The translations under genes and the position numbers were made by a program. The notes under the pieces were generated by a model that had not been told where the DNA came from, made no database searches, and saw only the letters and a list, made by a program, of their open reading frames with translations. Shown in pieces: positions 4,903-50,931 of a stretch of 64,000 nucleotides of DNA. Origin of the DNA: an uncultured Verrucomicrobiaceae bacterium (GTDB lineage: Bacteria > Pseudomonadota > Gammaproteobacteria > Pseudomonadales > CAMLJR01). The DNA lies in contig CAZWXW010000003.1 of the NCBI GenBank assembly GCA_964638025.1, positions 15,126 through 79,125 of the forward strand, read 5' to 3'. Position 1 is the first letter of the stretch; every line of letters starts with the position of its first letter.

Positions 4903-6030
4903 TCACAGCATGCCGTAGAGCTTGAGGCGATGTCGCAGGATGTTGCGACTGATGCCGAGCAGCTTCGCGGTCTGCAGCTGGTTCTGCTGGCAGTAGTCGA
5001 AGGCGCAGCGAATCATGCGCCGTTCCAGTTCGGCATACAGCTCGTCGCCGCCGCGCTCGAAGATGTTGATCATCGCCCGCTCGTAGGGCTGATCGGAGTC
5101 GGCGATATCCTCGACCAGTCGATGCGTGCCGGTCGGCTCGCTGCCGTGCTGCTGCAGCCGGTATTCCGGCAGATGAAGATCCGAGGCCTGGATCAGGTGG
5201 TCGCTGTGGATCAGCAGCGAGTGGTGAATGACATTCTCCAGCTCGCGGATATTTCCCGGCCAGGGATATGACAACAGCGCCTGCCGGGCGGCGGAGGTCA
5301 GCTGCGGCGGCCGCAGTGACAGCTGCTCCGAATAGCGAATGACGAAGTGCTCCGCCAGCGGCACGATATCGCCGCGCCGATCGCGCAGCGGCGGCACCTG
5401 CACCTGCGCCACGTTGAGGCGGTAGTACAGATCTTCGCGGAAGCGACCGCCGCGAACCGCTTCGGCGAGATTGACGTTGGTCGCCGCGACCAGCCGGATA
5501 TCGATCGGTATCGACACGCGCCCACCGACGCGACTGATCTCGCGCTCCTGCAATACCCGCAGCAGCTTGACCTGGGTGGCCGGTGGCAGATCGCCGATTT
5601 CATCGAGAAACAGCGTGCCGCCGCTGGCGATTTCGAACCAGCCCTTTTTCTGCAGCACCGCGCCGGTGAAGGCGCCTTTTTCATGGCCGAACAGTTCGCT
5701 CTCGACCAGCTGTTCCGGCAGCGCGGCGCAATTGACGGCGATGAAGGGACCGTTGCTGCGACCGCTGAGGTGATGAAGCCGGCGCGCCACCAGCTCCTTG
5801 CCGGTGCCGGTTTCGCCGATGATCAGCACGCTGGCATCGCTCGGCGCCAGCCGCATCAGGCGATCGTGCATCGCGCGCGAGCGCGCATCCTCGAACACCA
5901 GCGCGGTGGCGCGAATGCTGCGCGTATAGGCACCGGGGTTCTTGAACGAGATCAGGCGATCGGACTGGGTGTCCGAGCGCTGGTCGCCAAGATGCCGGGT
6001 GTCAAACGATGGGTCGAGAATGTCGTTCAT
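4903..6030 (-). CDS. Sigma-54-dependent transcriptional activator lacking a receiver/sensor domain (SfnR-like bEBP), R1
   Basis: ORF 4903-6168; ATG 6030 preceded by GGAG; AAA+ core [14 protein letters not shown] motif ([10 protein letters not shown]), LFLDEIGD; C-terminal Fis-type [23 protein letters not shown]; only about 75 aa precede the AAA+ domain. Confidence 0.85.
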
Positions 6031-6164
6031 TTGCTCCGCTCTCCATGACCGAACATGCTCTTTCTGAAAAAGCAGAATTTGTTCAGACAGCCTGATTTTC
6101 TTCCGTGAAAGTACCATCGGCCAGAAAACGGCAAAAACAATAAAAAAATGAATAGATATACGGA

Positions 6165-6182
6165 GCATTGCATTTGCAATGC
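6165..6182. promoter_or_regulatory. 18-bp palindrome in the AT-rich region upstream of R1
   Basis: GCATTGCA-TT-TGCAATGC; 8-bp arms with a 2-nt centre, so more like an operator than an RNA hairpin. Confidence 0.35.
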
Positions 6183-6217
6183 GTCGATCCGGTGCGGCAA
6201 CAAAAAGGGGGAATGGC

Positions 6218-7096
6218 TTACCGGATGGCCGACGGTTCGATGTTGTGTTGCAACTCCGGTTTCCACTCCGGATGCGGGGCGCCGAACAGCGTGCCCTGTG
6301 CCTTCGAAATGCCGGCCCTCTCCATCACCGGGCGAAGGTTCTCGCTGTTGACGCCGGTGGCAATGACCTCGATGCCGTTGTCCTTCGCCGCCGCTACCGC
6401 GTAGCTGACCAGTTCGCTGTGACGGGTGGAGGTCCGCGCCGCTTCCAGCGCGGTGCGATCCAGCTTGATCAGGTTTGGCTGCAGGCCGAGCACCCGGCCG
6501 ATGTGCAGGTGATTGCGGCCGAAGGCATCGATGGCGACGCGATAGCCGCGCGCCTGCCAGGCGCTGATGGCGTTGCGCAGATGCAGGCGGTCGCGCACCG
6601 GGAACTCGTTCACTTCCAGCACGAAGCTGGCGGGGGCCAGACCACAGCCGCGCAGAATCTCTTCGAATACCTGGCCGTGGTCGGAGCTGACGGTCAGCAA
6701 ATGTTCCAGGTGCACATTCAGGTGCAGCGTGCCGCTGCCCTGCTGAACCAGATAATTCAGTGCGTGCAGCGTGCGACTGAGGCGGTCGATATGCGTGATG
6801 TCGGCGTTGTCCGCCACCGATGACTGGATCGGGCTGCTGGCCAGCAGCGGCTTGCGAAACAGCGCGCCGTTCTGCCCCTCCAGCTGCAGAATGGCTTCGT
6901 GCCCAACGAGCTCCCCGGTGTCGATGTCGACAATCGGCTCATACAGGCTGTCGAGGCAGAAGCTGGCGTAGCGGGCGTTGATGCGATCGCCGGCGATGAA
7001 CAGCGGAAGCTCTTCGCCGGTCGCATAACGATCGCGCTGAAAGTAGTTGTGGTTCAAATAGATCAGCAGGTGCTTGACGACTTCGGTGCGGCTCAT
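6218..7096 (-). CDS. Stand-alone EAL-domain protein with degenerate catalytic motifs
   Basis: ORF 6218-7144; ATG 7096 preceded by GGAG; EAL-family blocks [21 protein letters not shown] (for DDFG), IKLDR, ATGVN (for EGVE), AQGTLFG. Confidence 0.75.
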
Positions 7097-7116
7097 CGTC
7101 GCTCCAGGGATCATTG

Positions 7117-7176
7117 GTGAAAGGTGCATGGGTGGAAAGTGCACGAGTGAAGGTTGCGTGGGTGATGCTGGCGCGA
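7117..7176. repeat. 15-bp tandem repeat x4 in the EAL gene 5' region
   Basis: GTGAAAGGTGCATGG / GTGGAAAGTGCACGA / GTGAAGGTTGCGTGG / GTGATGCTGGCGCGA; lies 21-80 nt upstream of the minus-strand start at 7096. Confidence 0.75.
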
Positions 7177-7305
7177 ATTCTGTTGGGCAAATCGACGTCT
7201 GTAAATTCTTTCGCTTCTATGGAGTTCTCATATCGATATCAGGCGGTTTTTCCAAACGATAGAGGGTGTTTGGCGCTGCTGGCGTGTCACCAGTGTTGTG
7301 GCAGG

Positions 7306-7327
7306 AACTGTTGCTGTAGCAACAGTT
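7306..7327. promoter_or_regulatory. Perfect 22-bp palindrome containing CTGTTG-N6-CAACAG; candidate activator (UAS) site
   Basis: AACTGTTGC-TGTA-GCAACAGTT; 130-150 nt upstream of the 7457 promoter candidate, in the EAL/R1 - P1 divergent region. Confidence 0.45.
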
Positions 7328-7456
7328 GGTGGATCGTGGTCGCCTTGGCCTTTGTGGTGTTGTATAACCACGGGCGCTGTTGTTTGTCGCCTGTATCGCC
7401 GCGAATGCGCGCTCCGGTTCATCTGCACCGATGCCGCGAGCGGTCGATTGGACGAT

Positions 7457-7472
7457 TGGTATGGCGACTGCA
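7457..7472 (+). promoter_or_regulatory. Candidate sigma-54 (-24/-12) promoter upstream of P1
   Basis: TGGTATGGCGACTGCA; GG to GC spacing as in TGGCAC-N5-TTGC; 43 nt upstream of ATG 7515. Confidence 0.5.
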
Positions 7473-7514
7473 AGAGCGTGGCTGAGTGGTTAAGGACGAT
7501 ATCCGGAGTTCACG

Positions 7515-8660
7515 ATGGCAAGAGATTTTGCAGCACCTCCCGGTTCTTCAGGGCCCGGCTCTTCAGGGCCCGGCTCTTCAGGGACTTCACGCTTTCCGAC
7601 CACGCTGTGGTATTCGCGCAGCTCGGTGCCGACGGCGCTCGGCATTGCCGCGCAGCTGGGATGGCTGCAGCAGGAGTTTTCGCCTGAAAGCATCGCCGTG
7701 CGTTCGCTGCAGCAGAGCGGCGATCCGCTGCTGCGCGAGAGTCATGTCGATCACCATCTGCCCGACAGCTTTCGCCAGGGCGGCAGCGTGCCGGCGCTGT
7801 GGGCCTATTCCGCCGGCGCCGATACCCGCCTGATCGGATTGACCTGGACCGAAGAGTTTCAGGCCGTGCTCAGCCTGCGCGGCTCCGGCATCGACAGCGC
7901 GCAACAGTTGCGCGGCCGTCGCCTCGGCCTGCCGTCGCGCCCCAACGAGCGCATCGACATGGCGCGGGCGACGGCGCTGCGCGGTTACCTGACGCTGCTC
8001 GATGTCGAGGGGATCGGTTATGACGAGGTGCAGCTGGTGGATGTCGAGACCGCGCCGTTGAGCGCGAATCATCTGCCGATCGACAATCGCAACTCGGCGG
8101 CATGGGCCAGCACGCCGGCGGGACATCTGACCCGGCGCGACTACCGGGCGGATGTGCTGGCGCTGCTGCGCGGCGACGTGGATGCCATCTATGTGAAAGG
8201 CGTGCGCGGCATCGAGGTGGCGCGGCTGCTCGGCGAGCAGGTGCAGGTGGCGGCCGATATCGGCGGCCATCCCGATATTCACGTGCGCAGCAACAACTCG
8301 ACGCCGCGCCCGCTGACGATCAGCGCCTCGACGCTGGAGAACTATCCCGATGTCGCCGTGCGTTTTCTGCGGCGGGTGGTGGAGGCGGGTGCCTGGGCGG
8401 AAACGCATCCGCGCGAGACGGTTGCGCTGCTCGGGCGCGAGACCGGTTCGGTCGAGGAGTGGATCAGCTACGCCTACGGCGTGGAAGTGCACCGCTACCT
8501 GCGCACCGATCTGGCTGATTACGCGCTGTCGGCGCTCGATGATTTCAAGAATTTCCTGTTCAAGTGGGGGTTTCTGCCCCACAACTTCAATCTCAATGGC
8601 TGGGTCGATTTCGAGCCGCTGGAACAGGTGCACAGGCTGCCGCGCAAGCGTATCGCGTAA
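7515..8660 (+). CDS. Cytoplasmic SsuA-fold protein, DszB (sulfinate desulfinase)-like paralog P1; Ser in place of the putative nucleophile Cys
   Basis: No signal peptide; motifs LWYSRSSVPTA, SHVDHHLPDSFRQGG, LIGLTWTEEFQA, LRGRRLGLP, FLFKWGFLP shared with 24607, 35366 and 49784 copies; N-terminal (PGSSG)x3 from a 15-bp tandem repeat. Confidence 0.7.
   Translation: MARDFAAPPGSSGPGSSGPGSSGTSRFPTTLWYSRSSVPTALGIAAQLGWLQQEFSPESIAVRSLQQSGDPLLRESHVDHHLPDSFRQGGSVPALWAYSAGADTRLIGLTWTEEFQAVLSLRGSGIDSAQQLRGRRLGLPSRPNERIDMARATALRGYLTLLDVEGIGYDEVQLVDVETAPLSANHLPIDNRNSAAWASTPAGHLTRRDYRADVLALLRGDVDAIYVKGVRGIEVARLLGEQVQVAADIGGHPDIHVRSNNSTPRPLTISASTLENYPDVAVRFLRRVVEAGAWAETHPRETVALLGRETGSVEEWISYAYGVEVHRYLRTDLADYALSALDDFKNFLFKWGFLPHNFNLNGWVDFEPLEQVHRLPRKRIA
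7541..7585 (+). repeat. 15-bp tandem repeat x3 inside the 5' end of P1 (encodes PGSSG x3)
   Basis: CGGTTCTTCAGGGCC / CGGCTCTTCAGGGCC / CGGCTCTTCAGGGAC. Confidence 0.85.
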
Positions 8661-22425: not shown

Positions 22426-22847
22426 TGGCTATCTCCAGTGCCAGTGGCGGTGAAAACGATGAAGTGCTGAGCGAGATAAACATCACGCCGATGGTCGATG
22501 TGATGTTGGTACTGCTCGTGGTATTCATCATCACCGCCCCGCTGATGACAAACTCGATCACCGTTAATTTGCCAAAGACAGACGCGACGCCGCAGTTGCA
22601 GAAGCCGGAAGAGCCGCTGGTGGTGAGTATCGACACGGCTGGGCTTGTCTACCTCGGAAAGGAAGAGGTTCCGATCGATTTCGTCGAACAGGAACTGATT
22701 GCCCGCAAGGCAAGTAATCCCGACATCAGATTGAGTCTGAATGCCGACGAGACGGTCTCCTATGGCGTGGTCGCCAAAGTGATGGTGATCATCGAGCGGG
22801 CCGGCATCGACAAGCTGTCGGTCGTCACACAGCAGGACGGCGCTTAG
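22425..22847 (+). CDS. exbD: ExbD/TolR-family protein
   Basis: ATG overlaps exbB stop (TAATG); INITPMVDVMLVLLVVFIITAP motif. Confidence 0.85.
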   Translation: MAISSASGGENDEVLSEINITPMVDVMLVLLVVFIITAPLMTNSITVNLPKTDATPQLQKPEEPLVVSIDTAGLVYLGKEEVPIDFVEQELIARKASNPDIRLSLNADETVSYGVVAKVMVIIERAGIDKLSVVTQQDGA

Positions 22848-22912
22848 GAAGTCTCTGATGAGTCCCCTCTCCTTCAGGGAGAGGGTTAGGGAGAGGGGGG
22901 GCAGAGGTTTCT
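22847..22912. repeat. REP/MITE-like element, copy B (single hairpin), fills the exbD / R2 convergent gap
   Basis: GGAAGTCTCTGATGAGTCCCCTCTCCTTCAGGGAGAGGGTTAGGGAGAGGG...GCAGAGGTTTC. Confidence 0.8.
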
Positions 22913-24112
22913 TTACAGGAAAGAAGGCTTGGCGAACTCTTCTGCTGCTTCCAGTTGCACGGTGGGAACGCTGTCGTCGAGTGCGCCGCCGTCATCGACC
23001 GATTCGCGCAGCAGGCCATGGCGCTTCAGTAGAGTACGCAATACGTTGCGTGAAATGCCGAGCAGCGCGGCGGTGTGAACCTGGTTGTGGTGCTTGTAGC
23101 GAAATGCTTCGTTGACGATCAGGTTTTCGAACTGATCGAAAATGGGAGATCTGCCGCCGCCATCTTCCGTGATCTGAAACAGCTGGCGCAGCTGCCGGGC
23201 AAGTACGTCCCACGGCGTATCGTCATGATCCTGCCCGACAGGCGGCCGACTTGCTGCGCTGTTCTGCCAGGAGCTTCTGCTCAGCGGACTTCTGCCACCG
23301 GCTATCTTGATGTGTTGAGGCTCTATTGCCTCTTTCTCGGATACCAGCAGCGCGAAATGAATTACATTTTCCAGCTCCCGGATATTGCCCGGCCAGCTGT
23401 AATGTCTCATCAATTCTCTCGTGTCGAATGAAATTTCTGGCTTTCTGCAACCCATTCGTTCGGTGTAGACGCGCAGGAAATATTCCGCCAGTGGCAGGAT
23501 ATCGCCCGGTCTTTCGCGAAGCGGTGGCAGTTCGACGTGCGCAATGTTTATGCGGTAAAGCAGGTCGCGGCGGAAGTGGCCTGCGGCGACCGCGTAATCG
23601 AGATCGACATTGGTGGCGGCAATCAGGCGGATGTCCACCGGGATGCTCTTGCGCGAACCGATGCGCACGACTTCGTGTTCCTGCAGCACGCGCAACAGCT
23701 TGACTTGCAGTGAGAGCGGCAGGTCGCCGATCTCGTCGAGAAACAGCGTGCCACCGTTGGCGGCCTCGAACCAGCCCTCGCGCCGGCCCGTTGCACCAGT
23801 GAAAGAACCGGCCTCGTGACCGAACAGTTCGCTTTCGGCCAGCTGGTCGCTGATGGCACCGCAGTTGACCGCGAGAAAGGGGCCTTTGCGTCCACTCAGG
23901 CGATGTATGTGGCGGGCGACCACCTCCTTGCCGGTGCCGGTTTCGCCGCCGATCAGCACCGGCGCCTCGCTCGGCGCGATGCGCTCGATGTAGTCGAGCA
24001 GCAGGGCCGACACCGGGTCGGAAAAGACCAGCGCCTTCGCCCGGATCGACAGCGGCTGCGCATTGCTTCCCACCAGTGACAGCACGACTGGGTCGGATGT
24101 TTCTTCGCTCAC
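22913..24112 (-). CDS. Sigma-54-dependent transcriptional activator lacking a receiver/sensor domain (SfnR-like bEBP), R2
   Basis: 399 aa; [34 protein letters not shown]; C-terminal [23 protein letters not shown]; short N-terminus. Confidence 0.85.
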
Positions 24113-24287
24113 GGAATTTACTCGAAGTGATCAGTAAAAAAGATGGAGCAGAGAACTATATTCCGGCGATTCTATTAATGAGGGTTGGGATTGCTAACGA
24201 ATTTATGCGTATAAGCTTATCGATTCATTCTGCGAATTTTCCGGGATATTTTGTCGAGTCCGGAGAGCTGTTCGATATCCAGCACTG

Positions 24288-24305
24288 CTGTTGGATTTTC
24301 AACAG
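24288..24305. promoter_or_regulatory. CTGTTG-N6-CAACAG inverted repeat; candidate activator (UAS) site
   Basis: CTGTTGGATTTTCAACAG in the R2 - P2 divergent region; a degenerate copy CTGTTCGATATCCAGCAC lies 21 bp upstream (24267-24284). Confidence 0.4.
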
Positions 24306-24606
24306 AGATCGTCAGAAAAGTGCGATATTTTCCGATTATTCCGTCGTGGTATCCCGATGCTTTGACGGCAATGTATAGTTGCGACCGGCACGCGGACTGT
24401 GAGCTTCCGTCGTTGGCAATGGGCGTCGATTTTTCCGAATTTTCTGAATATTTGGATGAAGACGAGCGCGTGCTTGATTCGGCGCATGGTTGATACTGTC
24501 AACAAATCCGGAATATATAGCGGCGGCGTGTTGCCCCTTTGCGTTGTCAGCCCCTTTGTGTCGTCAGCAGGTATAAGAATTCGTTTCGCCACAGGATTAT
24601 CCGTTC

Positions 24607-25740
24607 ATGCCAACATCCAGAAAGCCCGGAAGACTGCACGAAGTTTTTTACGCCCGAGCCCCGTTCCCGACGCCGGTGGCAATCGCCGTCCAGCTGGGTT
24701 GGATCCAGGATGCGATGCGACATCTTTCAGGTATCGAAGTCAGGTCGTTGAACGAAACGACGAACCCGGCGGATCTGCCGCACCACTTCGAGATCGATCA
24801 CCTCAACGCTTTTCGCCAGGGTGGTAGCATTCCGGTCATCTGGGCGCGCGCCAATCAGCAGGACACCCGTGTCATCGGGCTGACCTGGACCGACGAATAC
24901 CAGGCGCTGGTCGCGCTGCCGCAGTCGCGGATTCATAACGTCAAGGATCTGCGCGGCCGGCGCATCGGCGTGCCGAAGCACAGCATAGTCATCGACCACG
25001 CCCGCGCGTCGGCGCTGCGCGGCTTCAGCGTGCTGCTGGAGAGTGAGGGGATGAGTCTCGCGGATGTGGAGATCGTCGATCTGGAAGATCACGAGATTCC
25101 AACCATGGTGCTCGACGGGCAGGTGATCTCGATGGGAACCGGTCGTCGCGGCCGCCACAGCTACAGCAGCGAGGTTCACGCGATGACCAGCGGCCTGGTC
25201 GACGCGGTCTACGTCAAGGACGTGCGCGGCGCCCAGGCCACCCATCTGATGGGCGCGCAGGTATTCGCCGACATCAACGGCCATCCCGATCCCTATATCC
25301 GCATCAACAACGGCACGCCGCGTCCGCTGACGGTGAACGCGTGGTTGCTGGACAACTATCCGCATCTCGTCGACTGTCTCGTCGAGCAGGTTCACAACGC
25401 GGGTGAGTGGGCCCGCTCCCGTCCCGAGGAGACGCTGACCGTGCTGAGCCGCGAGATCGGTTGGTCGGAGCACTGGGTCAACTACACCTATGGCGACAAC
25501 GTTCACCGCAACCTCGGGCTCGACCTCAACCCGGCCAATGTCGAGCGCTTCACGCGGATGAAGGATTTCCTGCTGCAGCACAATTTCATTCCGCATGATT
25601 TCGATATCGATGCGTGGATCGATCCGGCCCCGCTGGAGCGCTTTCTGCGAAGTCGCAGGGGTGGATCTGTCGACGGCAGGGCATCGGCGCGCGAGAACCG
25701 CTGGTCGTGCCCGCCGGTTCCGCTGCGCTCGTTTCACTGA
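24607..25740 (+). CDS. DszB-like SsuA-fold paralog P2; Ala in place of the putative nucleophile Cys; aberrant C-terminal tail
   Basis: No signal peptide; VFYARAPFPTP, PHHFEIDHLNAFRQGG, VIGLTWTDEYQA, LRGRRIGVP; tail after APLERF is about 18 aa longer than in paralogs and overlaps a DszA-type remnant in another frame. Confidence 0.7.
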   Translation: MPTSRKPGRLHEVFYARAPFPTPVAIAVQLGWIQDAMRHLSGIEVRSLNETTNPADLPHHFEIDHLNAFRQGGSIPVIWARANQQDTRVIGLTWTDEYQALVALPQSRIHNVKDLRGRRIGVPKHSIVIDHARASALRGFSVLLESEGMSLADVEIVDLEDHEIPTMVLDGQVISMGTGRRGRHSYSSEVHAMTSGLVDAVYVKDVRGAQATHLMGAQVFADINGHPDPYIRINNGTPRPLTVNAWLLDNYPHLVDCLVEQVHNAGEWARSRPEETLTVLSREIGWSEHWVNYTYGDNVHRNLGLDLNPANVERFTRMKDFLLQHNFIPHDFDIDAWIDPAPLERFLRSRRGGSVDGRASARENRWSCPPVPLRSFH

Positions 25741-25941
25741 CGAACCGTGGTTGGTCGAGCGCGGCGCCGACGGCTTCAGTGTCGTGCCGCCGTACCTGCC
25801 GCAGGGGTTCGAGGATTTCGCCGTGCCGAACCTCGCTGACAAGAAATGCATCATGGTCATCAGTTCCGGCGGCGCGGGAAAATCGACGTCCTCGCGCGCT
25901 GGCTGCGCGCAGCTGTTACCGGATCAACACTCATCACCGCT
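25689..25941 (+). pseudogene. Remnant (last ~85 codons, frameshifted) of a DszA/NtaA-family LLM monooxygenase gene
   Basis: Three frames together read AREPLVVPAGSAALV / TDEPWLVERGADGFSVVPPYLPQGFEDFAVPNL / REN... . This matches the C-terminus of 48354-49700 (ARGHVQVIGSVKTVADTIEQWFVERAADGFNVIPPYLPQGFEDFVRLVVPEL...FRENLGL). EDF-to-REN is 11 nt shorter than in the intact copy (9-nt deletion plus 2-nt frameshift). Confidence 0.6.
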
Positions 25942-26056
25942 TCGCTGCTGAATTGCTAACAGCCGCTTTCGCAACAGCGCGAACTTCCGCACACGATCCA
26001 CCAAAATTTTCTTTTGTTCTCCGTAGTTGCAAATCGTCATCGACGTTGAAACGAGT

Positions 26057-26072
26057 TGGAATGGATCGTGCC
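26057..26072 (+). promoter_or_regulatory. Candidate sigma-54 promoter upstream of yejB-like 1
   Basis: TGGAATGGATCGTGCC; correct spacing; 57 nt upstream of ATG 26129, downstream of the DszA-type remnant. Confidence 0.4.
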
Positions 26073-26128
26073 TGACGTTGCGGATGGAAACCTGTTTCAG
26101 CGTTTCGATGCCGTGACGGAATAGATCG

Positions 26129-27190
26129 ATGTGGTATTACCTGATCAAGCGCCTGCTGGCGATGATCCCGACGCTGCTGGGCGTATTGACGCTGACATTC
26201 GCCGTGACGCAGTTCGTTCCTGGCGGCCCGGTCGACAACCTGCTGGCGGCGGTGGATGCGGAGGGCGCGCGCACCGGCGTCGAAGGTGGACTCAGTGGCG
26301 GCGGCTGGAGTTACAGCGGGCGCAACGGTATCGACGATTCGCAGATCGCGCACCTGACGAGCCTGTATGGGTTCGACCAGCCGCTGTGGGAGCGATACAC
26401 GCAGCTGCTCCGCAGCTTCGTCGTCTTTGATTTCGGTGACAGCTATTTTCGCAACGAGAGCGTCTGGTCGCTGATCCAGTCGAAGCTCGCCGTTTCGGTG
26501 TCGCTCGGCGTCTGGACCTTCATTCTGACCTACCTGATTTCGGTGCCGCTCGGCGTGGCGAAGGCGGTGCGCGCCGGCAGTGGCTTCGATCTCGTCACCA
26601 GCCTGCTGGTGCTGACCGGTTACGCGGTGCCCGGCTTCGTGCTCGGCGTGCTGCTGATCGTGCTGTTCGGCGGCGGCTCGTTCTGGGACATCTTTCCGCT
26701 GCGCGGGCTGACCTCGGACAACTGGCACGAGCTGAACGGCTGGGAAAAGGTTGCCGACTACCTGTGGCACGTGACGCTGCCGGTGACGGCGTCGGTGGTC
26801 AGCAGCTTCGCGCTGAAGACGCTGCTGACCAAGAACACCTTCCTCGACGAGATCCGCCGCCAGTATGTGCTGACCGCGCGCGCCAAGGGGCTGTCCGAGC
26901 GGCGGGTGCTGTGGAAGCACGTGCTGCGCAACGCGCTGCTGCCGCTGGTGACCAGCTTTCCCGGCACCTTCATCGCGGCCTTCTTCACCGGCAGCCTGCT
27001 GATCGAGACGCTGTTCTCGCTCGACGGCCTCGGCCTGCTGTCGTTCGAATCGATCAACAGCCGCGATTACCCGGTGGTGCTCGGCAGTCTCTACCTGTTC
27101 ACGCTGATCGCGCTGATCACCAAGCTGGTCGGCGACATCGCCTATGTGCTGATCGATCCCCGAATCAAGTTCGATGCCGTGGAGGCGTGA
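26129..27190 (+). CDS. PepT-family ABC importer permease, YejB-like (cassette 1)
   Basis: MWYYLIKRLLAMIPTLLGVLTLTF N-terminus typical of DppB/OppB/YejB; paralog of 47204-48268. Confidence 0.85.
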   Translation: MWYYLIKRLLAMIPTLLGVLTLTFAVTQFVPGGPVDNLLAAVDAEGARTGVEGGLSGGGWSYSGRNGIDDSQIAHLTSLYGFDQPLWERYTQLLRSFVVFDFGDSYFRNESVWSLIQSKLAVSVSLGVWTFILTYLISVPLGVAKAVRAGSGFDLVTSLLVLTGYAVPGFVLGVLLIVLFGGGSFWDIFPLRGLTSDNWHELNGWEKVADYLWHVTLPVTASVVSSFALKTLLTKNTFLDEIRRQYVLTARAKGLSERRVLWKHVLRNALLPLVTSFPGTFIAAFFTGSLLIETLFSLDGLGLLSFESINSRDYPVVLGSLYLFTLIALITKLVGDIAYVLIDPRIKFDAVEA

Positions 27191-28350
27191 TGAACACATC
27201 CATCAACCAGTCCGTCGACCTCGGCAACGCCATCGTCCTGCCGCAGGGTGGCACCGTCGGCGAGCTGGCCGGGCAGCCGGCGCGGGAGCGACTTCAGGCG
27301 GTCCGCCAGGAGTCGCCGCGGCAGCGCATCTGGCGGCGCTTCAGGAGCAATCGCCTCGGTTACTGGAGCCTGATCATCTTCTCCACGCTGTACGTGCTGA
27401 GCCTGCTCGGCGAGTTCGTCTCCAATGACAGGCCACTGCTGATCTGGCATCAGGAGCGGCTCTACTTTCCGCTGTTCAGGGATTATCCCGAGACCGATTT
27501 CGGCGGCCGGCTGCCGATCTTCGCCGACTACAACGATCCCCATATCCGCGCGCTGCTGGCGCAGCAGGGCAGCGTCGTCATCCGTGCACCGAACCCGTTC
27601 TACTACGACACGCTGAATTACTGGTCGCCCGCCGGCCACTATCCTGGTTCGCCCGACGCCGACAATCTGCTCGGCACCGATATCGCCGGCTACGACATTC
27701 TGGCGCGGCTGGTCTACGGCTTTCGTACGTCGGTCACGTTCGGGCTCGGGTTGACGCTGGTCGGCACCGGGCTCGGCGTCATCATCGGCGCGGTGCAGGG
27801 TTACTTCGCCGGCCGCGTCGATCTGGTCACGCAGCGGCTGATCGAGATCTGGGGCTCGATGCCGGAGCTCTACCTGCTGATCATCTTCTCGTCGCTGTTC
27901 GAGCCGAGCCTGATCCTGCTGTTCGCGCTGCTGTCGCTGTTCGGCTGGATTTTCCTGTCCGACTACGTGCGCGCCGAGTTCCTGCGCAACCGCCAGCTCG
28001 AATACGTCAAGGCGGCGAGGGCGATGGGGCTGTCGCACCTGCAGATCATCTGGCGCCACATCCTGCCGAACAGCCTGACGCCGGTCATCACCTTCCTGCC
28101 GTTCCGGATGAGCGCCGCGATCATGGCGCTGGCCAGCCTCGATTTCCTCGGCCTCGGCGTGAAGGCACCGGCGCCGAGCCTCGGCGGCCTGCTGCTGCAG
28201 GGCAAGGAGAACCTCGACGCCTGGTGGATCGCCGTCGCCTCGTTCTCGGTGCTGGTCGCCACGCTGTTGCTGCTGACCTTCATGGGCGAGGCGCTGCGCA
28301 ACGCGATCGACACGCGGATCGACGTCAAGCCGGACGGGAGCGCGCGATGA
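27190..28350 (+). CDS. PepT-family ABC importer permease, YejE-like (cassette 1)
   Basis: ATG 27190 overlaps upstream stop (TGATG) after GGAGG; in ORF 26764-28350; paralog of 46000-47202 (RFRSNRLGYWSLIIF, LGTDIAGYDILARL). Confidence 0.85.
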   Translation: MNTSINQSVDLGNAIVLPQGGTVGELAGQPARERLQAVRQESPRQRIWRRFRSNRLGYWSLIIFSTLYVLSLLGEFVSNDRPLLIWHQERLYFPLFRDYPETDFGGRLPIFADYNDPHIRALLAQQGSVVIRAPNPFYYDTLNYWSPAGHYPGSPDADNLLGTDIAGYDILARLVYGFRTSVTFGLGLTLVGTGLGVIIGAVQGYFAGRVDLVTQRLIEIWGSMPELYLLIIFSSLFEPSLILLFALLSLFGWIFLSDYVRAEFLRNRQLEYVKAARAMGLSHLQIIWRHILPNSLTPVITFLPFRMSAAIMALASLDFLGLGVKAPAPSLGGLLLQGKENLDAWWIAVASFSVLVATLLLLTFMGEALRNAIDTRIDVKPDGSAR

Positions 28351-29963
28351 GCGAGCCGCTATTGTCGATCGAAAACCTGAACATCGCCTTCGGCGGCAAG
28401 ACGGTCGTCGAGAATCTGAGCCTGCAGATAAACGCCGGCGAACGCGTGGCGCTGGTCGGCGAATCGGGTTCCGGAAAAACCGTTACGGCGCTGTCGATCC
28501 TGCGGCTGGTGCAGGGCGCCAGTGTCGGCGGCAGCATCCGCCTGCAGGGGCAGGAGCTGCTCACCAAGTCCGGCGAGGAGATCAGGCGCGTGCGCGGCAG
28601 CGATGTCGCGATGATCTTCCAGGAGCCGATGTCGGCGCTGAATCCGCTCTACACGATCGGCAACCAGATCATCGAGACGCTGCAGCAGCACGAGAGCCTG
28701 ACGCCGCGCGAGGCACGCGAAAAGACCATCGCGCTATTGGCGCGCACCGGCATCCGCGAACCGGAGCGGCGCGTCGACAGTTACCCGCACCAGCTCTCCG
28801 GCGGCCAGCTGCAGCGCGCCGTCATCGCGATGGCGCTGGCGTGCCGGCCGAAGCTGCTGATCGCCGACGAGCCGACCACGGCGCTGGACATGACGGTGCG
28901 CGCCCGCATCGTCAGGCTGCTGCTCGATCTGCAGCAGGAGGAGATCGAACGCAACCGGCAGCTCGGTCGGCCGGACGACGGCATGGCGATCCTGCTGATC
29001 ACGCACGACCTGAACCTGGTGCGCCGCTTCGCGCAACGGGTCGCGGTCATGGAGCACGGCGTACTGGTCGAGAGCGGCGAGCAGGAAGCGCTGTTTGCGC
29101 AGCCGCGCCATCCGTACACGATCAAGCTGCTGAACAGCATCCCGGTGCGCCGGATCGAGCCGGTCGACCGGCAGGCGCAGACGCTGCTGGCGACGCGCGA
29201 CCTGCGCGTCGAATACCCGAAGCGACGGCACGGCTGGCGCGGCCTGTTTCGCAGCGACCGCTTCGTCGCGCTCGATTCGGCTGACATCGCGCTGCGCGCC
29301 GGCGAAACGATCGGCATCGTCGGTGAATCTGGGTCGGGAAAATCGACGCTGGCGCAGGCCATTCTCGGGTTGGTGCGCACGCAGGGCGGTGAGCTGGAAT
29401 TCGAGGGCCGCTCCGAACGTCATTTCAGCCGGCGTGAAAAGCGCGCGCTGCGTTCGCGCCTGCAGGTGGTGTTCCAGGACCCGTTCGGTTCTCTGTCGCC
29501 GCGGCAGACGGTCGAGCAGATCGTCGAGGAGGGGCTGCTGCTGCACTACCCGCAGATGAGCCGGCAAGAGCGCTTCGAGCGCATTGCCGAGGTGCTCGAC
29601 AACGTTGGACTGCCGCTGTCGGCGCTCGCTGATTATCCACACGCATTTTCCGGCGGCCAGCGCCAGCGCATCGCGATCGCGCGGGCGCTGGTGCTGAAGC
29701 CGCGCGTCGTGGTGCTCGACGAACCGACATCGGCACTGGACGTGTCGATCCAGAACCAGGTGCTGCAGCTGCTGGTCGACCTGCAGAAGAAGTACGGCCT
29801 CAGCTATCTGCTGATCACGCACGACCTGCAGGTGGTCAATGCGCTGGCGCACCGGTTGTACGTGCTGAAGGACGGGCTGATCGTCGAGTCGGGCGACACC
29901 GAGCAGATCGTTGCCAACCCGCAGCACCCGTATACACGAAGCCTGATTCAGGCGTCGCTGTGA
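28347..29963 (+). CDS. Double-ABC-domain ATPase, YejF-like (cassette 1)
   Basis: ATGA overlap with upstream stop; two Walker A sites ([17 protein letters not shown]), two signatures ([16 protein letters not shown]). Confidence 0.9.
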   Translation: MSEPLLSIENLNIAFGGKTVVENLSLQINAGERVALVGESGSGKTVTALSILRLVQGASVGGSIRLQGQELLTKSGEEIRRVRGSDVAMIFQEPMSALNPLYTIGNQIIETLQQHESLTPREAREKTIALLARTGIREPERRVDSYPHQLSGGQLQRAVIAMALACRPKLLIADEPTTALDMTVRARIVRLLLDLQQEEIERNRQLGRPDDGMAILLITHDLNLVRRFAQRVAVMEHGVLVESGEQEALFAQPRHPYTIKLLNSIPVRRIEPVDRQAQTLLATRDLRVEYPKRRHGWRGLFRSDRFVALDSADIALRAGETIGIVGESGSGKSTLAQAILGLVRTQGGELEFEGRSERHFSRREKRALRSRLQVVFQDPFGSLSPRQTVEQIVEEGLLLHYPQMSRQERFERIAEVLDNVGLPLSALADYPHAFSGGQRQRIAIARALVLKPRVVVLDEPTSALDVSIQNQVLQLLVDLQKKYGLSYLLITHDLQVVNALAHRLYVLKDGLIVESGDTEQIVANPQHPYTRSLIQASL

Positions 29964-29968
29964 GCAGT

Positions 29969-30088
29969 GGCAACCTCTCCCCTCTCCCTTCAGGGAGAGG
30001 GGCCGGGGGAGAGGGTGTTCGGCGATGGCATTGCGTATTTCCCCTCTCCCTAACCCTCTCCCTTCAGGGAGAGGGGACTTGGTCAGTG
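29969..30088. repeat. REP/MITE-like element, copy C (double hairpin), after yejF-like 1
   Basis: CCTCTCCCCTCTCCCTTCAGGGAGAGGGGCCGGGGGAGAGGG ... CCCCTCTCCCTAACCCTCTCCCTTCAGGGAGAGGGGACTTGGTCAG. Confidence 0.85.
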
Positions 30089-30109
30089 CGCCCTTGAGTC
30101 CTGATGATG

Positions 30110-30145
30110 CGCTGCGCGTGTGAAGACAGCTTCACACGCGCAGCG
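30110..30145. other. 16-bp perfect-stem hairpin / inverted repeat after REP copy C
   Basis: CGCTGCGCGTGTGAAG-ACAG-CTTCACACGCGCAGCG; no U-tract follows. Confidence 0.6.
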
Positions 30146-30318
30146 AAGCATTGCCGGTAAATCACGATTTTTCAGTGAATCATTCTCTGTTTTCTTTTGC
30201 ACAAGCGCATCGGAATATCTGTTCAAAAACAACCAGCGCGTTTTTAGACGTAACTTCGTCCATCTGAAAAATCAGTGAATTTCAGCGCATTGCACGATTT
30301 TTCCATGCTTCCGAAAGT

Positions 30319-30334
30319 TGGCTCGATTTCTGCC
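30319..30334 (+). promoter_or_regulatory. Candidate sigma-54 promoter upstream of yejA-like 1 / TBDR2 / CDO-like / P3
   Basis: TGGCTCGATTTCTGCC; shares TTTCTGCC with the tonB site; 79 nt upstream of GTG 30413. Confidence 0.5.
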
Positions 30335-30412
30335 AGTATCCAAGAAGAACGGTACGACTGTTCTTGATTCAACGATTTTCGATCGACAGTTAGATCGCGT
30401 TTGGAAGCAGCA

Positions 30413-32329
30413 GTGTCACTTATCGATTTTCTCACCGGCAGCAAATCCATCATCGGCAGAATTTTCTGTCTGGCTCTGTTCGTTTGGACGTCGCCGGCAA
30501 GTCATGCTGCGCATGCACTGTCGCTGTTCGGCGAGCCGAAATATCCCGCTGGTTTTTCCCACTTCGACTACGTCAATCCGGCGGCGCCGAAGGGCGGGAG
30601 CATTACCTTCGCGCTGGTCAGCCTGAACAGCAATTTCGACAAGTTCAATCCGTACAGCCTGAAGGGAGTGCCGGCGCCGGGGCTATTGGAGCTGGTGTTC
30701 GAGACGCTGACGATCAACAGCATGGATGAGCTCAATACGCAGTATGGATTGCTGGCCGACGATATCCGGTTGAACGACGAGCTGACTGTCGTCACGTTCC
30801 GAATCAATTCGAAGGCGACCTTTTCCAACGGCGATCAGATCACGGCGGACGATGTCGTCCACTCGTTCGAGATGCTGACCGGCCCCGATGCCAGCCCGCG
30901 CTACAAGGCCTATTTTTCCGAAGTGAAACGGGTCTACACGGTGGATCGGCAGCATGTGAGCTTCGAGTTCAACCGTAGGGGGCGCGACATCTCGTTCATC
31001 GCCGGCAGCCTGCCGGTGTTCTCGAAGAAGTGGGGCGTTGCCGGCAACGGTGAGACGAAGCGCTTCGGGCAACTGTTGCTCGATGCGCCGGTCGCATCGG
31101 GGCCGTATCTGATCGACAGCTGGCACAGCAGTCGCGGCATCACCTACCGGCGCAACCCGGACTACTGGGCGAAGGAGCATCCCGTACGCAAGGGAACCTT
31201 CAATTTCGACGGCGTCGCCTACAAGGTTTACAAGGACAAGGACTCGCAGGTAGCCGCACTGCGTGCCGGCGAGTTCGACTTCCACGCCGAATCGGCGATG
31301 CGCTACTGGTGCTGCCAGTACATCGGCAAGCGCTTCGACAGCGGCGAGCTGGTCAAGCATCGCTTCACGCATCGGAACCCGCCGGCGATGAACGGCTGGG
31401 TGACCAACCTCAGAAAGCAGAAGTTCCAGGACGTCCGCGTGCGCAAGGGGCTGAACTACCTGCTGGACTACGAGTGGATCAACGACCGCATCTTCGACAG
31501 CGAATTCAAGCGCATCGACAGCTATTTCTCCAACACGCCGCTGGCGGCCGCCGGGTTGCCGAGCGCAGAGGAGATTGCGCTGCTGGAACCGTGGCGCGAT
31601 GAGTTGCCCGCGGAGGTGTTCGGCCCGATGTTCGAGCAGCCGACGACTCGTGTCGACGGACTGACGCAGGCCGAGGCGTTTCGCCTCAACCTGGAAAAGG
31701 CATTGGAGCTGTTCGCCGAGGCAGGCTGGACATTTCGCGACGGCGGGTTGCGCAATGCCGACGGCGAGCAGTTCACGCTGGAGTTCTTCGACCGCCGCGT
31801 GCAGCACCCGTACAACGCACCGATCTACACGAACCTGATCCGGCTCGGCATCGACGTGCGGATCAAGGTGGCCGACCCGGCGACCGAACGGGCCGTGCTG
31901 CGCGATTTCAATTTCGATTACCGCACCGTCAGTCTGCGCGAGGGGCGGCTTCCCGGCGACGAGCTGTGGCGCGCCTTCAACAGTGCGGCGGCGGACAGGC
32001 CGGGCTCCGAAAACTACGCCGGCGTCAAATCGGAAGCTGTCGATCACCTGATCAGGAAACTGCTCAATGCCCGCGATCAGCAGGAAATGGTAACGACGGC
32101 GCGAGCGCTGGATAGGGTTCTCATCCACAGCCACTACTTCGTCCCGTGGCGCTATCTGACCGACCACTACGTCATCCATCACCAACGACTGAATTATCCG
32201 CGCGACCTTCCTCTGTACTACGGCGCCAACGAATGGGCGCTTGCTACCTGGTGGGAAGAGAGGGAGTGGGATGCGCCTGTCCGAGCGATCGCGGCCATGA
32301 CCGATATCGACAAAGAGCTGCCGAATTGA
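30413..32329 (+). CDS. Family-5 periplasmic solute-binding protein, YejA-like (cassette 1)
   Basis: ORF from TTG 30401; GTG 30413 has GGAAG 9 nt upstream; signal peptide ...LFVWTSPASHA; LFGEPKYPAGFSHFDYVNPAAPKGG shared with 42383 and 60386 copies. Confidence 0.8.
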   Translation: MSLIDFLTGSKSIIGRIFCLALFVWTSPASHAAHALSLFGEPKYPAGFSHFDYVNPAAPKGGSITFALVSLNSNFDKFNPYSLKGVPAPGLLELVFETLTINSMDELNTQYGLLADDIRLNDELTVVTFRINSKATFSNGDQITADDVVHSFEMLTGPDASPRYKAYFSEVKRVYTVDRQHVSFEFNRRGRDISFIAGSLPVFSKKWGVAGNGETKRFGQLLLDAPVASGPYLIDSWHSSRGITYRRNPDYWAKEHPVRKGTFNFDGVAYKVYKDKDSQVAALRAGEFDFHAESAMRYWCCQYIGKRFDSGELVKHRFTHRNPPAMNGWVTNLRKQKFQDVRVRKGLNYLLDYEWINDRIFDSEFKRIDSYFSNTPLAAAGLPSAEEIALLEPWRDELPAEVFGPMFEQPTTRVDGLTQAEAFRLNLEKALELFAEAGWTFRDGGLRNADGEQFTLEFFDRRVQHPYNAPIYTNLIRLGIDVRIKVADPATERAVLRDFNFDYRTVSLREGRLPGDELWRAFNSAAADRPGSENYAGVKSEAVDHLIRKLLNARDQQEMVTTARALDRVLIHSHYFVPWRYLTDHYVIHHQRLNYPRDLPLYYGANEWALATWWEEREWDAPVRAIAAMTDIDKELPN

Positions 32330-50866: not shown

Positions 50867-50915
50867 GACGTTGCCCCTCCTGGCATGGTGTCAAGGCGTT
50901 TTGCAGAGCTGACAG

Positions 50916-50931
50916 AGCATGCTCCATGCCA
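50916..50931 (-). promoter_or_regulatory. Candidate sigma-54 promoter upstream of the P4 / DszA-like operon
   Basis: Minus strand reads TGGCATGGAGCATGCT; correct spacing; 50 nt upstream of ATG 50866. Confidence 0.55.

What the first reader, a model, noticed from the sequence alone, without database searches (positions are those of the whole stretch)
22913..25740. Second sensor-less sigma-54 activator R2 divergent from the Ala-variant DszB-like P2: same architecture as the R1 locus
Seen: R2 (22913-24112) is a paralog of R1, again with a short N-terminus. The divergent gene P2 (24607-25740) has Ala at the DszB-Cys27-equivalent position. The intergenic region carries CTGTTG-N6-CAACAG, as the R1/P1 region does. 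The regulator / Cys-less paralog arrangement therefore occurs twice, whereas the Cys-bearing P3 and P4 sit among enzymes. Inference: either a recurring regulator-cofactor pairing, or P2 is simply the decaying counterpart of P4 because its DszA-type neighbour is a pseudogene.
Basis: inference. Interest (0 to 1): 0.6.

Follow-up and report, generated by a model that had tools for sequence, protein, structure and literature searches.

The report
Sensor-less sigma-54 activator with dead desulfinase
A sigma-54 activator that has no sensor domain sits back-to-back with a well-conserved but catalytically disabled copy of a sulfur-releasing enzyme; the pairing recurs in other bacteria, so the dead enzyme may be the activator's missing sensor, though this is unproven.

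Summary
R2 (22913-24112, minus strand) is a 399-aa sigma-54 activator with at most 32 residues before its AAA+ domain, about 50% identical to R1. P2 (24607-25740) is a DszB-like protein with Ala18 where DszB has catalytic Cys27; the DszB ligand-contact positions H60, R70 and G73 are kept. The perfect palindrome CTGTTG-N6-CAACAG occurs only twice in the window, once in each regulator/P spacer.

P2 is not decaying. Five orthologs (80-89% identity) keep Ala and full length, and dN/dS is 0.08-0.15, as low as for R2 and the transporter genes. All four relatives with context have bEBP divergent from P2(Ala), then a spacer carrying palindromes and a conserved sigma-54 promoter, then a Cys-bearing paralog, DszA and transporters. 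P2 is therefore probably its own unit. In this window the Cys paralog and most of DszA are deleted, leaving a 33-codon relic.

Cys-less paralogs form several separate branches (Ala, Ser, Gly, Pro). They lie next to sensor-less activators more often than Cys-bearing ones do, but the enrichment is modest.

The R1 locus differs: an EAL gene intervenes, and P1 has its own sigma-54 promoter.

A sensor or co-regulator role for P2 is plausible (about 0.35) and untested.

The parts
22913..24112 (-). R2: sensor-less sigma-54 enhancer-binding protein (399 aa). AAA+ domain from about residue 33, GSFTGA loop, C-terminal helix-turn-helix, then a 31-aa acidic tail.
   Evidence: Pfam Sigma54_activat E 1.2e-65. 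Sequence. Alignment to R1, including R1's HTH_8 region. Orthologs of 399-414 aa. dN/dS 0.11-0.19.
24169..24197 (-). Sigma-70-like promoter candidate for R2 (TTAGCA-17-TAGAAT).
   Evidence: Consensus scan. A similar site lies at the same place in L001. This is a consensus match only.
24203..24220 (.). Conserved box TTATGCGTATAAGCTTAT, containing the palindrome ATAAGCTTAT, just upstream of the R2 promoter candidate. It may be the site of another regulator.
   Evidence: ATAAGCTTAT is invariant in all five orthologous spacers. The box is unique in the window, 0.01 expected. Its function is inferred.
24267..24305 (.). Tandem enhancer-like sites: GCTGTTCGATATCCAGCA (imperfect) and the perfect CTGTTGGATTTTCAACAG, 20 nt apart start to start.
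   Evidence: The palindrome is conserved in L001 (one change), L004 and L085.
24367..24383 (+). Conserved 17-mer GGCAATGTATAGTTGCG of unknown role. It contains TATAGT. The GG..GC spacing is 12, so it is not a sigma-54 promoter.
   Evidence: Conserved in the window, L001 and L085. Spacing read.
24607..25740 (+). P2: cytoplasmic DszB-fold protein (377 aa). Ala18 stands at the DszB Cys27 position; H60, R70 and G73 are kept. It has a disordered basic C-terminal tail ending in RSFH.
   Evidence: Model pLDDT 87.6, with DszB as best fold match, E 2e-21. dN/dS 0.08-0.15.
25736..25834 (+). Relic of a DszA-type monooxygenase gene (residues 376-411 of 451), joined directly to the P2 stop codon. This is the scar of a deletion of about 2.6 kb that removed the Cys-bearing paralog and most of DszA.
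   Evidence: blastn against L001 and L004. tblastn and junction sequences.
25823..25930 (+). Relic of a P-loop gene (residues 18-54 of a 195-aa gene in L004). A second and a third deletion scar relative to the L004 arrangement lie here.
25913..25962 (.). Two imperfect enhancer-like sites, CTGTTACCGGATCAACAC and CTGCTGAATTGCTAACAG, 32 nt apart.
   Evidence: Conserved in L004 and L085 upstream of dppB.
26057..26072 (+). Sigma-54-type promoter TGGAATGGATCGTGCC, 56 nt upstream of the permease gene.
   Evidence: The core TTGGAA-GGAT-GTGC is invariant in the three aligned loci.
26129..32329 (+). Dpp/Opp-type ABC importer: permease 26129-27190, permease about 27187-28350, fused double ATPase about 28347-29963, family-5 solute-binding protein 30401-32329.
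   Evidence: Pfam. Internal starts were placed by comparison with gene lengths in L001.
4903..8660 (.). Paralogous locus: R1 (4903 to about 6030, minus strand), EAL-domain gene (6218-7144, minus strand), sites at 7276-7293 and 7308-7325, sigma-54-like promoter TGGTATGGCGACTGCA at 7457-7472, P1 (7515-8660, plus strand, Ser at the Cys27 column).
   Evidence: Conserved in L041 and L057. dN/dS: P1 0.13-0.18, R1 0.10-0.16, EAL 0.27-0.33.
49784..50931 (-). P4 (Cys-bearing, 49784-50866) with sigma-54 promoter TGGCATGGAGCATGCT (50931-50916) 49 nt upstream. It heads a P4-DszA-transporter operon that parallels the operon deleted next to P2.
   Evidence: The homologous promoter GGCAYGAATTCTGCT lies 42-45 nt upstream of the Cys paralog in L001, L004, L083 and L085.

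Best explanation
R2 and P2 form the conserved control head of a sigma-54-driven cluster for scavenging organic sulfur.

R2. It is an enhancer-binding protein with no sensor domain. Once made, from what looks like an ordinary sigma-70 promoter, it binds pairs of CTGTTG-N6-CAACAG-type sites. From there it opens sigma-54 promoters in front of the uptake and desulfurization operons. In this window those are the dppB-type importer at 26057 and probably the P4 operon.

P2. It is a copy of a DszB-type desulfinase that has lost the catalytic cysteine but keeps the DszB ligand-contact positions. It is kept by selection as a stand-alone gene beside the regulator, outside the sigma-54-driven enzyme operons.

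Most likely mechanism. P2 binds a sulfinate- or sulfonate-type compound without turning it over and passes that information to R2, in the way PspA acts on PspF or HrpV on HrpS. This would give a sensor-less activator its substrate specificity.

In this genome a deletion removed the adjacent Cys-bearing paralog and DszA. The regulator, P2 and the importer were left intact.

Shown: gene identities, conservation, purifying selection, the deletion, the conserved promoters and sites, and the recurrence of the pairing.

Inferred: that R2 binds these sites, that P2 binds a ligand, and above all that P2 acts on R2. I put the architecture at about 0.9 and the P2-to-R2 link at about 0.35.
For: R2 is sensor-less. 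All bEBPs found next to P-family genes in the 78 genome loci scanned are sensor-less too, with at most 66 residues before the AAA+ domain in nearly all.

P2 has the DszB fold, Ala at the Cys27 column and H60/R70/G73 retained. PDB 2DE3 is a DszB C27S mutant crystallised with its substrate bound. A Cys-less protein of this fold can therefore hold ligand without releasing product.

Ala is fixed in six sequences of 80-100% identity, and the nearest relatives at 73% or below have Cys. dN/dS of P2 is 0.08-0.15, versus 0.11-0.21 for the Cys paralog.

In L001, L004, L083 and L085 the spacer after P2 (263-368 nt) carries palindromes and a conserved sigma-54 promoter 42-45 nt before the Cys paralog. L001 also has a terminator-like hairpin there.

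P2 has no conserved sigma-54 promoter of its own.

The dppB promoter and its two sites are conserved.

Cys-less paralogs lie on separate branches of the family tree. They sit beside sensor-less bEBPs in divergent, convergent and tandem orientation. Two of three out-of-sample Cys-less proteins do as well.

H60 is lost in 5 of 22 Cys-less sequences against 2 of 125 Cys-bearing ones, as expected if catalysis is gone.

Trans-regulation of sensor-less bEBPs is established for PspF/PspA and HrpRS/HrpV (PMC7057263).
Against: No interaction between R2 and P2 was or could be tested.

The closest Cys-bearing relatives of P2 (L005, L008, L087) are also divergent neighbours of R2 orthologs. In Cellvibrio japonicus every P gene around the regulator carries Cys. 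Adjacency therefore predates the loss of Cys and does not need it.

After dereplication at 70% identity, Cys-less clusters are adjacent to a bEBP in 5 of 10 cases against 5 of 34 (p 0.03). Among loci that hold a bEBP the figures are 5 of 9 against 5 of 18 (p 0.22).

One Cys-less clade (Methylophilaceae, P0102) is not near a bEBP.

L085 has a strong sigma-54 promoter in front of its P2, so P2 can itself be a target.

For the related SfnR system, my recollection of Endoh et al. (not read here) is that control works through the regulator's expression by CysB. That would need no partner.
Confidence: 0.4

Rival explanations
1. P2 is only a member of the R2 regulon and has no regulatory role. It would be a cytoplasmic binding or buffering protein for sulfinates or sulfonates, or an enzyme that works without the cysteine. 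It lies next to R2 because P-family genes are the usual first genes of operons under this regulator family.
For: Cys-bearing P genes also lie next to these regulators: L005, L008, L040, L060, L065, L087 and L088. L085 has a strong sigma-54 promoter upstream of P2. P1 (Ser) has its own sigma-54-like promoter and enhancer sites. The enrichment loses significance when restricted to loci with a bEBP.
Against: P2 lacks a conserved sigma-54 promoter, whereas the genes downstream have conserved ones. Cys-less paralogs are typically stand-alone or share an operon with the regulator, in three different orientations. Loss of the Cys27 equivalent, plus H60 in some lineages, argues against a DszB-type reaction.
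Confidence: 0.35
2. P2 is a dead-paralog partner ('prozyme') of the active Cys-bearing desulfinase. It would form a complex with that paralog, or with P4 in this genome, and tune its activity or stability rather than act on R2.
For: In all four relatives P2(Ala) lies directly upstream of a Cys-bearing P4-type paralog. The loss of Cys coincides with the presence of that paralog. A P4 copy about 70% identical to it remains in the window.
Against: P2 and the Cys paralog are separated by a promoter-bearing spacer and, in L001, a hairpin, so they are not co-transcribed. Other Cys-less lineages sit beside the regulator, not beside a Cys paralog: L028, L033, L037 and L089. My recollection, not checked here, is that DszB is a monomer.
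Confidence: 0.15
3. P2 is a decaying remnant, the inactive counterpart of P4, left behind after its operon eroded.
For: The neighbouring DszA and P-loop genes are deletion relics, and the Cys paralog is gone. No credible sigma-54 promoter lies upstream of P2 in the window. The high identity of the DszA relic to L001 (92.5% over 80 nt) suggests the deletion is recent, so there may not have been time for visible decay in this genome.
Against: The ORF is intact to the last codon and Ala is fixed in six sequences. dN/dS is 0.08-0.15, including the pairs that involve the window. The loss of Cys predates the deletion, because relatives with intact operons share it.
Confidence: 0.04

Closest known systems
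SfnR / SfnR1 / SfnR2 of Pseudomonas (sigma-54-dependent activators of dimethyl sulfone and dimethyl sulfide utilisation; Endoh et al. 2003 and 2005, Lundgren et al. 2019, as cited in PMC13352529 and PMC8234197)
   Same: A sigma-54 enhancer-binding protein set among sulfur-scavenging genes: flavin-dependent luciferase-like monooxygenases, transporters and TonB-dependent receptors.
   Different: No SfnR sequence was available, so orthology is untested. No source named any R2 homolog SfnR. No DszB-like partner is described for SfnR in the papers I could reach. That SfnR lacks a sensor domain and is controlled through CysB is my recollection and was not checked here.
DszB, 2'-hydroxybiphenyl-2-sulfinate desulfinase of Rhodococcus (PDB 2DE2, 2DE3, 2DE4)
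   Same: Best sequence match (E 1e-9) and best fold match (E 2e-21) in the PDB. No signal peptide is apparent. The H60, R70 and G73 positions are conserved.
   Different: Catalytic Cys27 is replaced by Ala, and identity is only 22-23%. P2 is in effect a natural counterpart of the C27S substrate-trapping mutant.
PspF/PspA and HrpR-HrpS/HrpV (sensor-less bEBPs regulated in trans; PMC7057263)
   Same: An activator without an N-terminal regulatory domain. A candidate partner gene is transcribed divergently from the activator gene, as pspA is from pspF. The enhancer sites lie in the shared spacer.
   Different: The candidate partner has a solute-binding-protein/DszB fold unrelated to PspA or HrpV. 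No interaction has been shown. P2 lacks the sigma-54 promoter that pspA has.
Cytoplasmic solute-binding-protein-fold sensors (AmiC/AmiR of Pseudomonas aeruginosa; the C-terminal regulatory domain of the CmpBCD/NrtC transporters, PDB 9UAK)
   Same: A periplasmic-binding-protein fold used inside the cell to sense a small molecule and control another protein. 9UAK appears among the fold matches of the P2 model.
   Different: They act on different partners (an antiterminator, a transporter ATPase), and none derives from an enzyme. AmiC is cited from general knowledge.
SsuA/TauA periplasmic sulfonate-binding proteins
   Same: Same fold superfamily: Pfam NMT1, weak NCBIfam SsuA_fam hit, Foldseek ranks 4-12.
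   Different: P2 scores 73 bits against a cutoff of 163.5, has no signal peptide, and resembles DszB more closely.

Membership tests
Bacterial enhancer-binding proteins (sigma-54 activators) | AAA+ sigma-54 interaction domain with Walker A | tested here: met
   Pfam PF00158 E 1.2e-65 over residues 33-193; GETGTGKE present.
Bacterial enhancer-binding proteins (sigma-54 activators) | GAFTGA loop that contacts sigma-54 | tested here: met
   R2 has GSFTGA and R1 has GAFTGA. The F and T are kept.
Bacterial enhancer-binding proteins (sigma-54 activators) | C-terminal helix-turn-helix DNA-binding domain | tested here: inconclusive
   Pfam HTH_8 was reported for R1 (E 5e-6) but not for R2 at E 0.001 or better. 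R2 residues [17 protein letters not shown] align with the R1 HTH.
Sensor-less bEBP subgroup (PspF, HrpR/S type) | No N-terminal regulatory domain | tested here: met
   The longest possible ORF leaves 32 residues before the AAA+ domain. Orthologs leave 32-35.
Sensor-less bEBP subgroup (PspF, HrpR/S type) | Activity controlled in trans by a partner protein | not testable with these tools
   Only gene adjacency and its conservation could be assessed.
SfnR family | Orthology to Pseudomonas SfnR | not testable with these tools
   No SfnR sequence or model in any library used. The key papers are not held. No R2 homolog carries that name.
SfnR family | Sulfur-scavenging gene context | tested here: met
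   Luciferase-like monooxygenases, DszB-like genes, ABC importers, TonB-dependent receptors and a nitroreductase surround R1 and R2.
DszB desulfinase | DszB-type fold | tested here: met
   Foldseek best PDB matches are 2DE2 and 2DE3, E 2e-21 to 4e-20, TM 0.68-0.76, ahead of SsuA and TauA. Model pLDDT is 87.6.
DszB desulfinase | Catalytic Cys27 | tested here: not met
   Ala18 aligns with Cys27. The column is Cys in 104 of 124 aligned sequences (120 homologs plus the four window paralogs).
DszB desulfinase | Ligand-contact residues His60, Arg70, Gly73 | tested here: met
   P2 has H60, R70 and G73 in the aligned columns. That these residues contact the sulfinate is taken from knowledge of the DszB structures.
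SsuA/TauA periplasmic binding proteins | Family score above the curated cutoff, and an export signal | tested here: not met
   NCBIfam SsuA_fam scores 73 bits against a cutoff of 163.5. The N-terminus MPTSRKPGRLHEVFYARAPF has no hydrophobic signal segment (read by eye).

The most novel reading that the evidence does not exclude
Dead desulfinases act as detachable ligand sensors for a widespread family of sensor-less sigma-54 activators. A DszB-type enzyme that has lost its catalytic cysteine (to Ala, Ser or Gly on separate branches of the family) holds the pathway's sulfinate or sulfonate without turning it over and switches the neighbouring activator on or off. In this reading an enzyme has been recruited repeatedly as a trans-acting sensor for a transcription ATPase.
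Probability: 0.3. Interest if true: 0.8.

Novelty: new variant of a known kind. Interest (0 to 1): 0.6.

Why it matters
How sensor-less sigma-54 activators of the sulfur-starvation response recognise which organosulfur compound is present is not explained by the sources I could reach. A conserved, selection-maintained, catalytically disabled desulfinase encoded next to the regulator is a concrete and testable candidate for the missing sensor.

If it is the sensor, this would add a new class of trans-acting partner to the short list known for enhancer-binding proteins. It would also be an example of enzymes being converted more than once into sensors, and it would offer a ligand-binding module of possible use in biosensors for sulfinates or sulfonates.

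If it is not, the finding still shows two things. Annotating these genes as 'ABC transporter substrate-binding protein' is misleading. And the cluster in this genome is a partly eroded copy of a better preserved operon in relatives.

Tried and rejected
1. Canonical sigma-54 promoter upstream of P2. A weighted scan and an exhaustive GG-N10-GC listing found only TGGATGAAGACGAGCG (poor) in the window, and nothing conserved in L001, L004 or L083. Near-matches have the wrong spacing (GG-N9-GC at about 24522) or lack the -12 GC (CGGCACGCGGACTGTG at 24386). I therefore did not file P2 as a sigma-54 target.

2. The conserved GGCAATGTATAGTTGCG as a sigma-54 promoter. Rejected, because the spacing is 12 rather than 10.

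3. A structured RNA leader upstream of P2. There was no meaningful Rfam match in 22800-26300.

4. P2 as a periplasmic SsuA-type binding protein. Rejected: below the family cutoff, no signal peptide, and DszB is the better fold match.

5. P2 as a decaying gene. Rejected by dN/dS and by the conservation of Ala.

6. Testing SfnR membership. The literature search on 'SfnR' alone was swamped by unrelated acronyms. The Lundgren 2019 paper is not held. No homolog carries that name.

7. Looking up the window's own contig through P0001. Not on record.

8. Enrichment of Cys-less paralogs next to bEBPs. It is significant over all clusters (p 0.03) but not when restricted to loci that contain a bEBP (p 0.22). 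I treat it as suggestive only.

9. A paper linking DszB and sigma-54. The term search surfaced none among the top-ranked papers.
Full report
**What is at the coordinates**

The window is GC-rich, about 59-66%. The genes around the finding run in this order:
- a TonB-dependent receptor (18011-20470) and TonB-ExbB-ExbD (20814-22847), all on the plus strand;
- R2 (22913-24112, minus strand), followed by a 494-nt spacer;
- P2 (24607-25740, plus strand), followed by a 388-nt gap;
- a Dpp/Opp-type ABC importer: two permeases, a fused double ATPase and a family-5 binding protein, 26129-32329;
- a second TonB-dependent receptor;
- P3 (35312-36463), a luciferase-like monooxygenase and an MFS transporter.

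R2 is a sigma-54 activator. Its AAA+ domain starts at residue 33 of the longest possible ORF. It has a GSFTGA loop and a C-terminal helix-turn-helix that aligns with R1's. It is 50-52% identical to R1.

P2 matches only DszB among solved structures by sequence (E 1e-9). Ala18 stands in the column of catalytic Cys27. P1 has Ser there; P3 and P4 have Cys. An AlphaFold model of P2 (pLDDT 87.6) finds DszB as its best PDB fold match (E 2e-21), ahead of SsuA and TauA.

The perfect palindrome CTGTTG-N6-CAACAG occurs exactly twice in the window, in the R2/P2 spacer and in the EAL/P1 spacer, against 0.01 expected.

**Where the R1 locus differs**

An EAL-domain gene (6218-7144, minus strand) lies between R1 and P1 and is co-oriented with R1. 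This arrangement is conserved in L041 and L057.

P1 has a sigma-54-like promoter, TGGTATGGCGACTGCA, 42 nt before its ATG, and two enhancer-like sites about 150-180 nt further upstream.

Upstream of P2 in the window I found no credible sigma-54 promoter. There is only one GG-N10-GC, and its flanks are poor. The best -24-like element lacks the -12 GC. 'Same architecture' is thus only partly right.

**Is P2 decaying?**

No. A database search found five orthologs of 80-89% identity. All are 373-377 aa and all have Ala in the Cys27 column. The next relatives (73% identity or less) have Cys.

Pairwise Nei-Gojobori dN/dS:

| Gene | dN/dS |
|---|---|
| P2 | 0.08-0.15 |
| R2 | 0.11-0.19 |
| Cys-bearing paralog | 0.11-0.21 |
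| DszA | 0.10 |
| DppB | 0.06-0.13 |
| P1 | 0.13-0.18 |

The P2 range includes the pairs that involve the window. The loss of Cys is therefore a fixed, selection-maintained state of a small clade and not a step in decay.

**What relatives show**

Four related contigs have context: L001 (also fetched as L006), L004, L083 and L085. In all four a sensor-less bEBP is divergent from P2(Ala).

P2 is followed by a spacer of 263-368 nt. After the spacer come a 351-354-aa P4-type paralog that does carry the Cys (YTRCGAAT), a 451-aa DszA-type monooxygenase and then transporter genes.

The spacer holds CTGTTG-N6-CAACAG-type sites (perfect in L083). It also holds a conserved sigma-54 promoter, GGCAYGAATTCTGCT, 42-45 nt before the Cys paralog. 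L001 has a terminator-like hairpin directly after P2.

P2 is therefore probably its own transcription unit, lying between the regulator gene and the sigma-54-driven enzyme operon. Only L085 has a strong sigma-54 promoter in front of P2.

**What happened in this window**

Immediately after the P2 stop codon the sequence jumps to codon 376 of DszA. Positions 25736-25834 encode residues 376-411 of 451. A fragment of a P-loop gene follows, and then the conserved region upstream of dppB.

Relative to L004 there are three deletions. The first, about 2.6 kb, removed the spacer, the Cys paralog and most of DszA.

The region that follows carries two imperfect sites (25913, 25945) and a sigma-54-type promoter (26057-26072). 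All three are conserved in L004 and L085. The importer thus keeps a typical enhancer-dependent promoter.

The P4 operon elsewhere in the window is P4-DszA-DppBCDF-binding protein-nitroreductase-ABC exporter. It has the homologous promoter TGGCATGGAGCATGCT and related half-sites upstream. It could be served by R2 or R1.

The DszA relic is 92.5% identical to L001 over 80 nt. This hints that the deletion is recent, so P2 being intact in this genome says little on its own.

**How general is the pairing?**

One scan of species-representative genomes gave 78 loci. Every bEBP found near a P-family gene is sensor-less, with at most 66 residues possible before the AAA+ domain in nearly all.

Cys-less P proteins (Ala, Ser, Gly, Pro) fall on several separate branches of a neighbour-joining tree. 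Their positions relative to a sensor-less bEBP:
- directly beside one: the P2 clade (divergent), L027 (tandem), L028 and L033/L037 (convergent), L036/L049 (tandem);
- near one: the P1 clade and both L009 genes;
- 8 kb away: the Methylophilaceae Ser clade.

Three further Cys-less proteins were taken from the protein search as an out-of-sample check. Two are divergent neighbours of 394-aa and 401-aa sensor-less bEBPs; one is not.

The pairing is not exclusive. The closest Cys-bearing relatives of P2 (L005, L008, L087) are also divergent from R2 orthologs. In Cellvibrio japonicus all P genes around the regulator have Cys.

After dereplication at 70% identity, Cys-less clusters are adjacent to a bEBP in 5 of 10 cases against 5 of 34 for Cys-bearing clusters (Fisher p 0.03). 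Among loci that contain a bEBP the figures are 5 of 9 against 5 of 18 (p 0.22). The enrichment is suggestive, not established.

**Mechanism**

PDB entry 2DE3 is a DszB C27S mutant crystallised with its substrate. A Cys-less protein of this fold can therefore hold ligand without turnover.

P2 keeps H60, R70 and G73. Across the Cys-less lineages R70 and G73 are almost always kept, while H60 is lost in 5 of 22 sequences against 2 of 125 Cys-bearing ones. This fits loss of catalysis with retention of a binding pocket.

Sensor-less bEBPs are known to be controlled in trans: PspF by PspA and HrpRS by HrpV (PMC7057263). pspA is also divergent from pspF.

My best reading is that P2 is a non-catalytic ligand-binding partner that modulates R2. 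I rate it at about 0.35.

The main rival is that P2 is just a regulon member with a non-regulatory binding role or a different catalytic role (0.35). A third reading is that it partners the active paralog, as a 'prozyme' does (0.15). Decay is at about 0.04.

That R2 binds the palindromes, and that a sigma-70 promoter (24197-24169) and the conserved box TTATGCGTATAAGCTTAT (24203-24220) control R2 expression, are inferences from position and conservation.

**Comparison with what is known**

R2 works like SfnR-type activators of the Pseudomonas sulfur-starvation response, as cited in PMC13352529 and PMC8234197. Orthology could not be tested, and no source uses that name for R2 homologs; the closest named ones are from Cellvibrio, 72-75% identity.

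P2 has the DszB fold but fails the defining catalytic residue, so I do not file it as a desulfinase. It is not an SsuA-type binding protein either.

My term search for DszB together with sigma-54 terms surfaced no paper on a DszB-like protein linked to a sigma-54 activator among the top-ranked results. I rate the finding a new variant of a known kind, namely trans-partnered sensor-less activators. That rating is conditional on the partner role being real.

Noticed in passing
window 6218-7144 (-): An EAL-domain gene lies directly upstream of R1 and is co-oriented with it. It is conserved in L041 and L057 but evolves faster (dN/dS 0.27-0.33) than R1 or P1. It could itself be a partner or input for sensor-less R1. 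Another EAL gene lies near the bEBP/Cys-less pair in L089.
   Followed up: partly
window 25660-25740 (P2 C-terminus); P0002-P0087: All proteins of the P2 group, with or without the Cys, end in a poorly conserved basic tail (pLDDT below 50 in the P2 model) closed by a conserved hydrophobic residue plus His (RSFH, GLIH, SVH, PLH, RLLH). P1, P3 and P4 lack it. It looks like a short C-terminal docking or metal-binding motif.
   Followed up: partly
window 29978-30089; L001 8467-8491: The GC-rich hairpin CCCCTCTCCCTTCAGGGAGAGGGG that follows P2 in L001 recurs, in both orientations, between the ATPase and binding-protein genes of the window. It is a REP-like repeated element rather than a dedicated terminator.
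   Followed up: no
L020 5225-5242, L024 5196-5213, L051 5232-5249: The perfect CTGTTG-N6-CAACAG also occurs in Methylovorus loci (Betaproteobacteria) that carry a sensor-less bEBP. The site seems to be shared across this regulator family and not only between R1 and R2.
   Followed up: no
window 24017-24112 (R2 N-terminus); P0121-P0144: The short N-terminal peptide before the AAA+ domain (LSLxGxNAQPLSxRAKALVF) is strongly conserved among R2 homologs. It may be a functional element rather than a mere leftover.
   Followed up: no
P0081, P0083, P0085, P0089, P0090; L009 10001-11020: A Paraburkholderia-type subgroup has Pro in the Cys27 column but a Cys two residues earlier (WC[IV]RPPVPTP). This is a possible shifted catalytic cysteine, so these proteins may not be truly Cys-less.
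   Followed up: no
window 22913-27190 versus L001: Synonymous divergence from L001 differs strongly between adjacent genes (DppB 0.18, P2 0.38, R2 0.68). This suggests recombination or a mosaic history across the locus.
   Followed up: no
window 51095-51140 (upstream of P4, minus strand): Half-sites TTTCAACAG and CTGCTGGATT lie about 170-210 nt upstream of the P4 sigma-54 promoter. Their geometry matches the sites in the P2-to-Cys-paralog spacer of relatives. The P4 operon may therefore be controlled in trans by R2 or R1, since no regulator gene is adjacent to it.
   Followed up: partly
L006, L041, L057 (record titles) versus P0129-P0240: The contigs most similar to the window are MAG bins labelled Verrucomicrobiaceae, whereas the closest named protein homologs are from Cellvibrio and Cellvibrionaceae. 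The bin labels may be wrong, or the cluster may have moved between phyla.
   Followed up: no
window 24533-24566: A tandem 17-nt direct repeat, GCCCCTTTGCGTTGTCA / GCCCCTTTGTGTCGTCA, lies just upstream of the P2 ribosome-binding site. L001 has a single copy.
   Followed up: no
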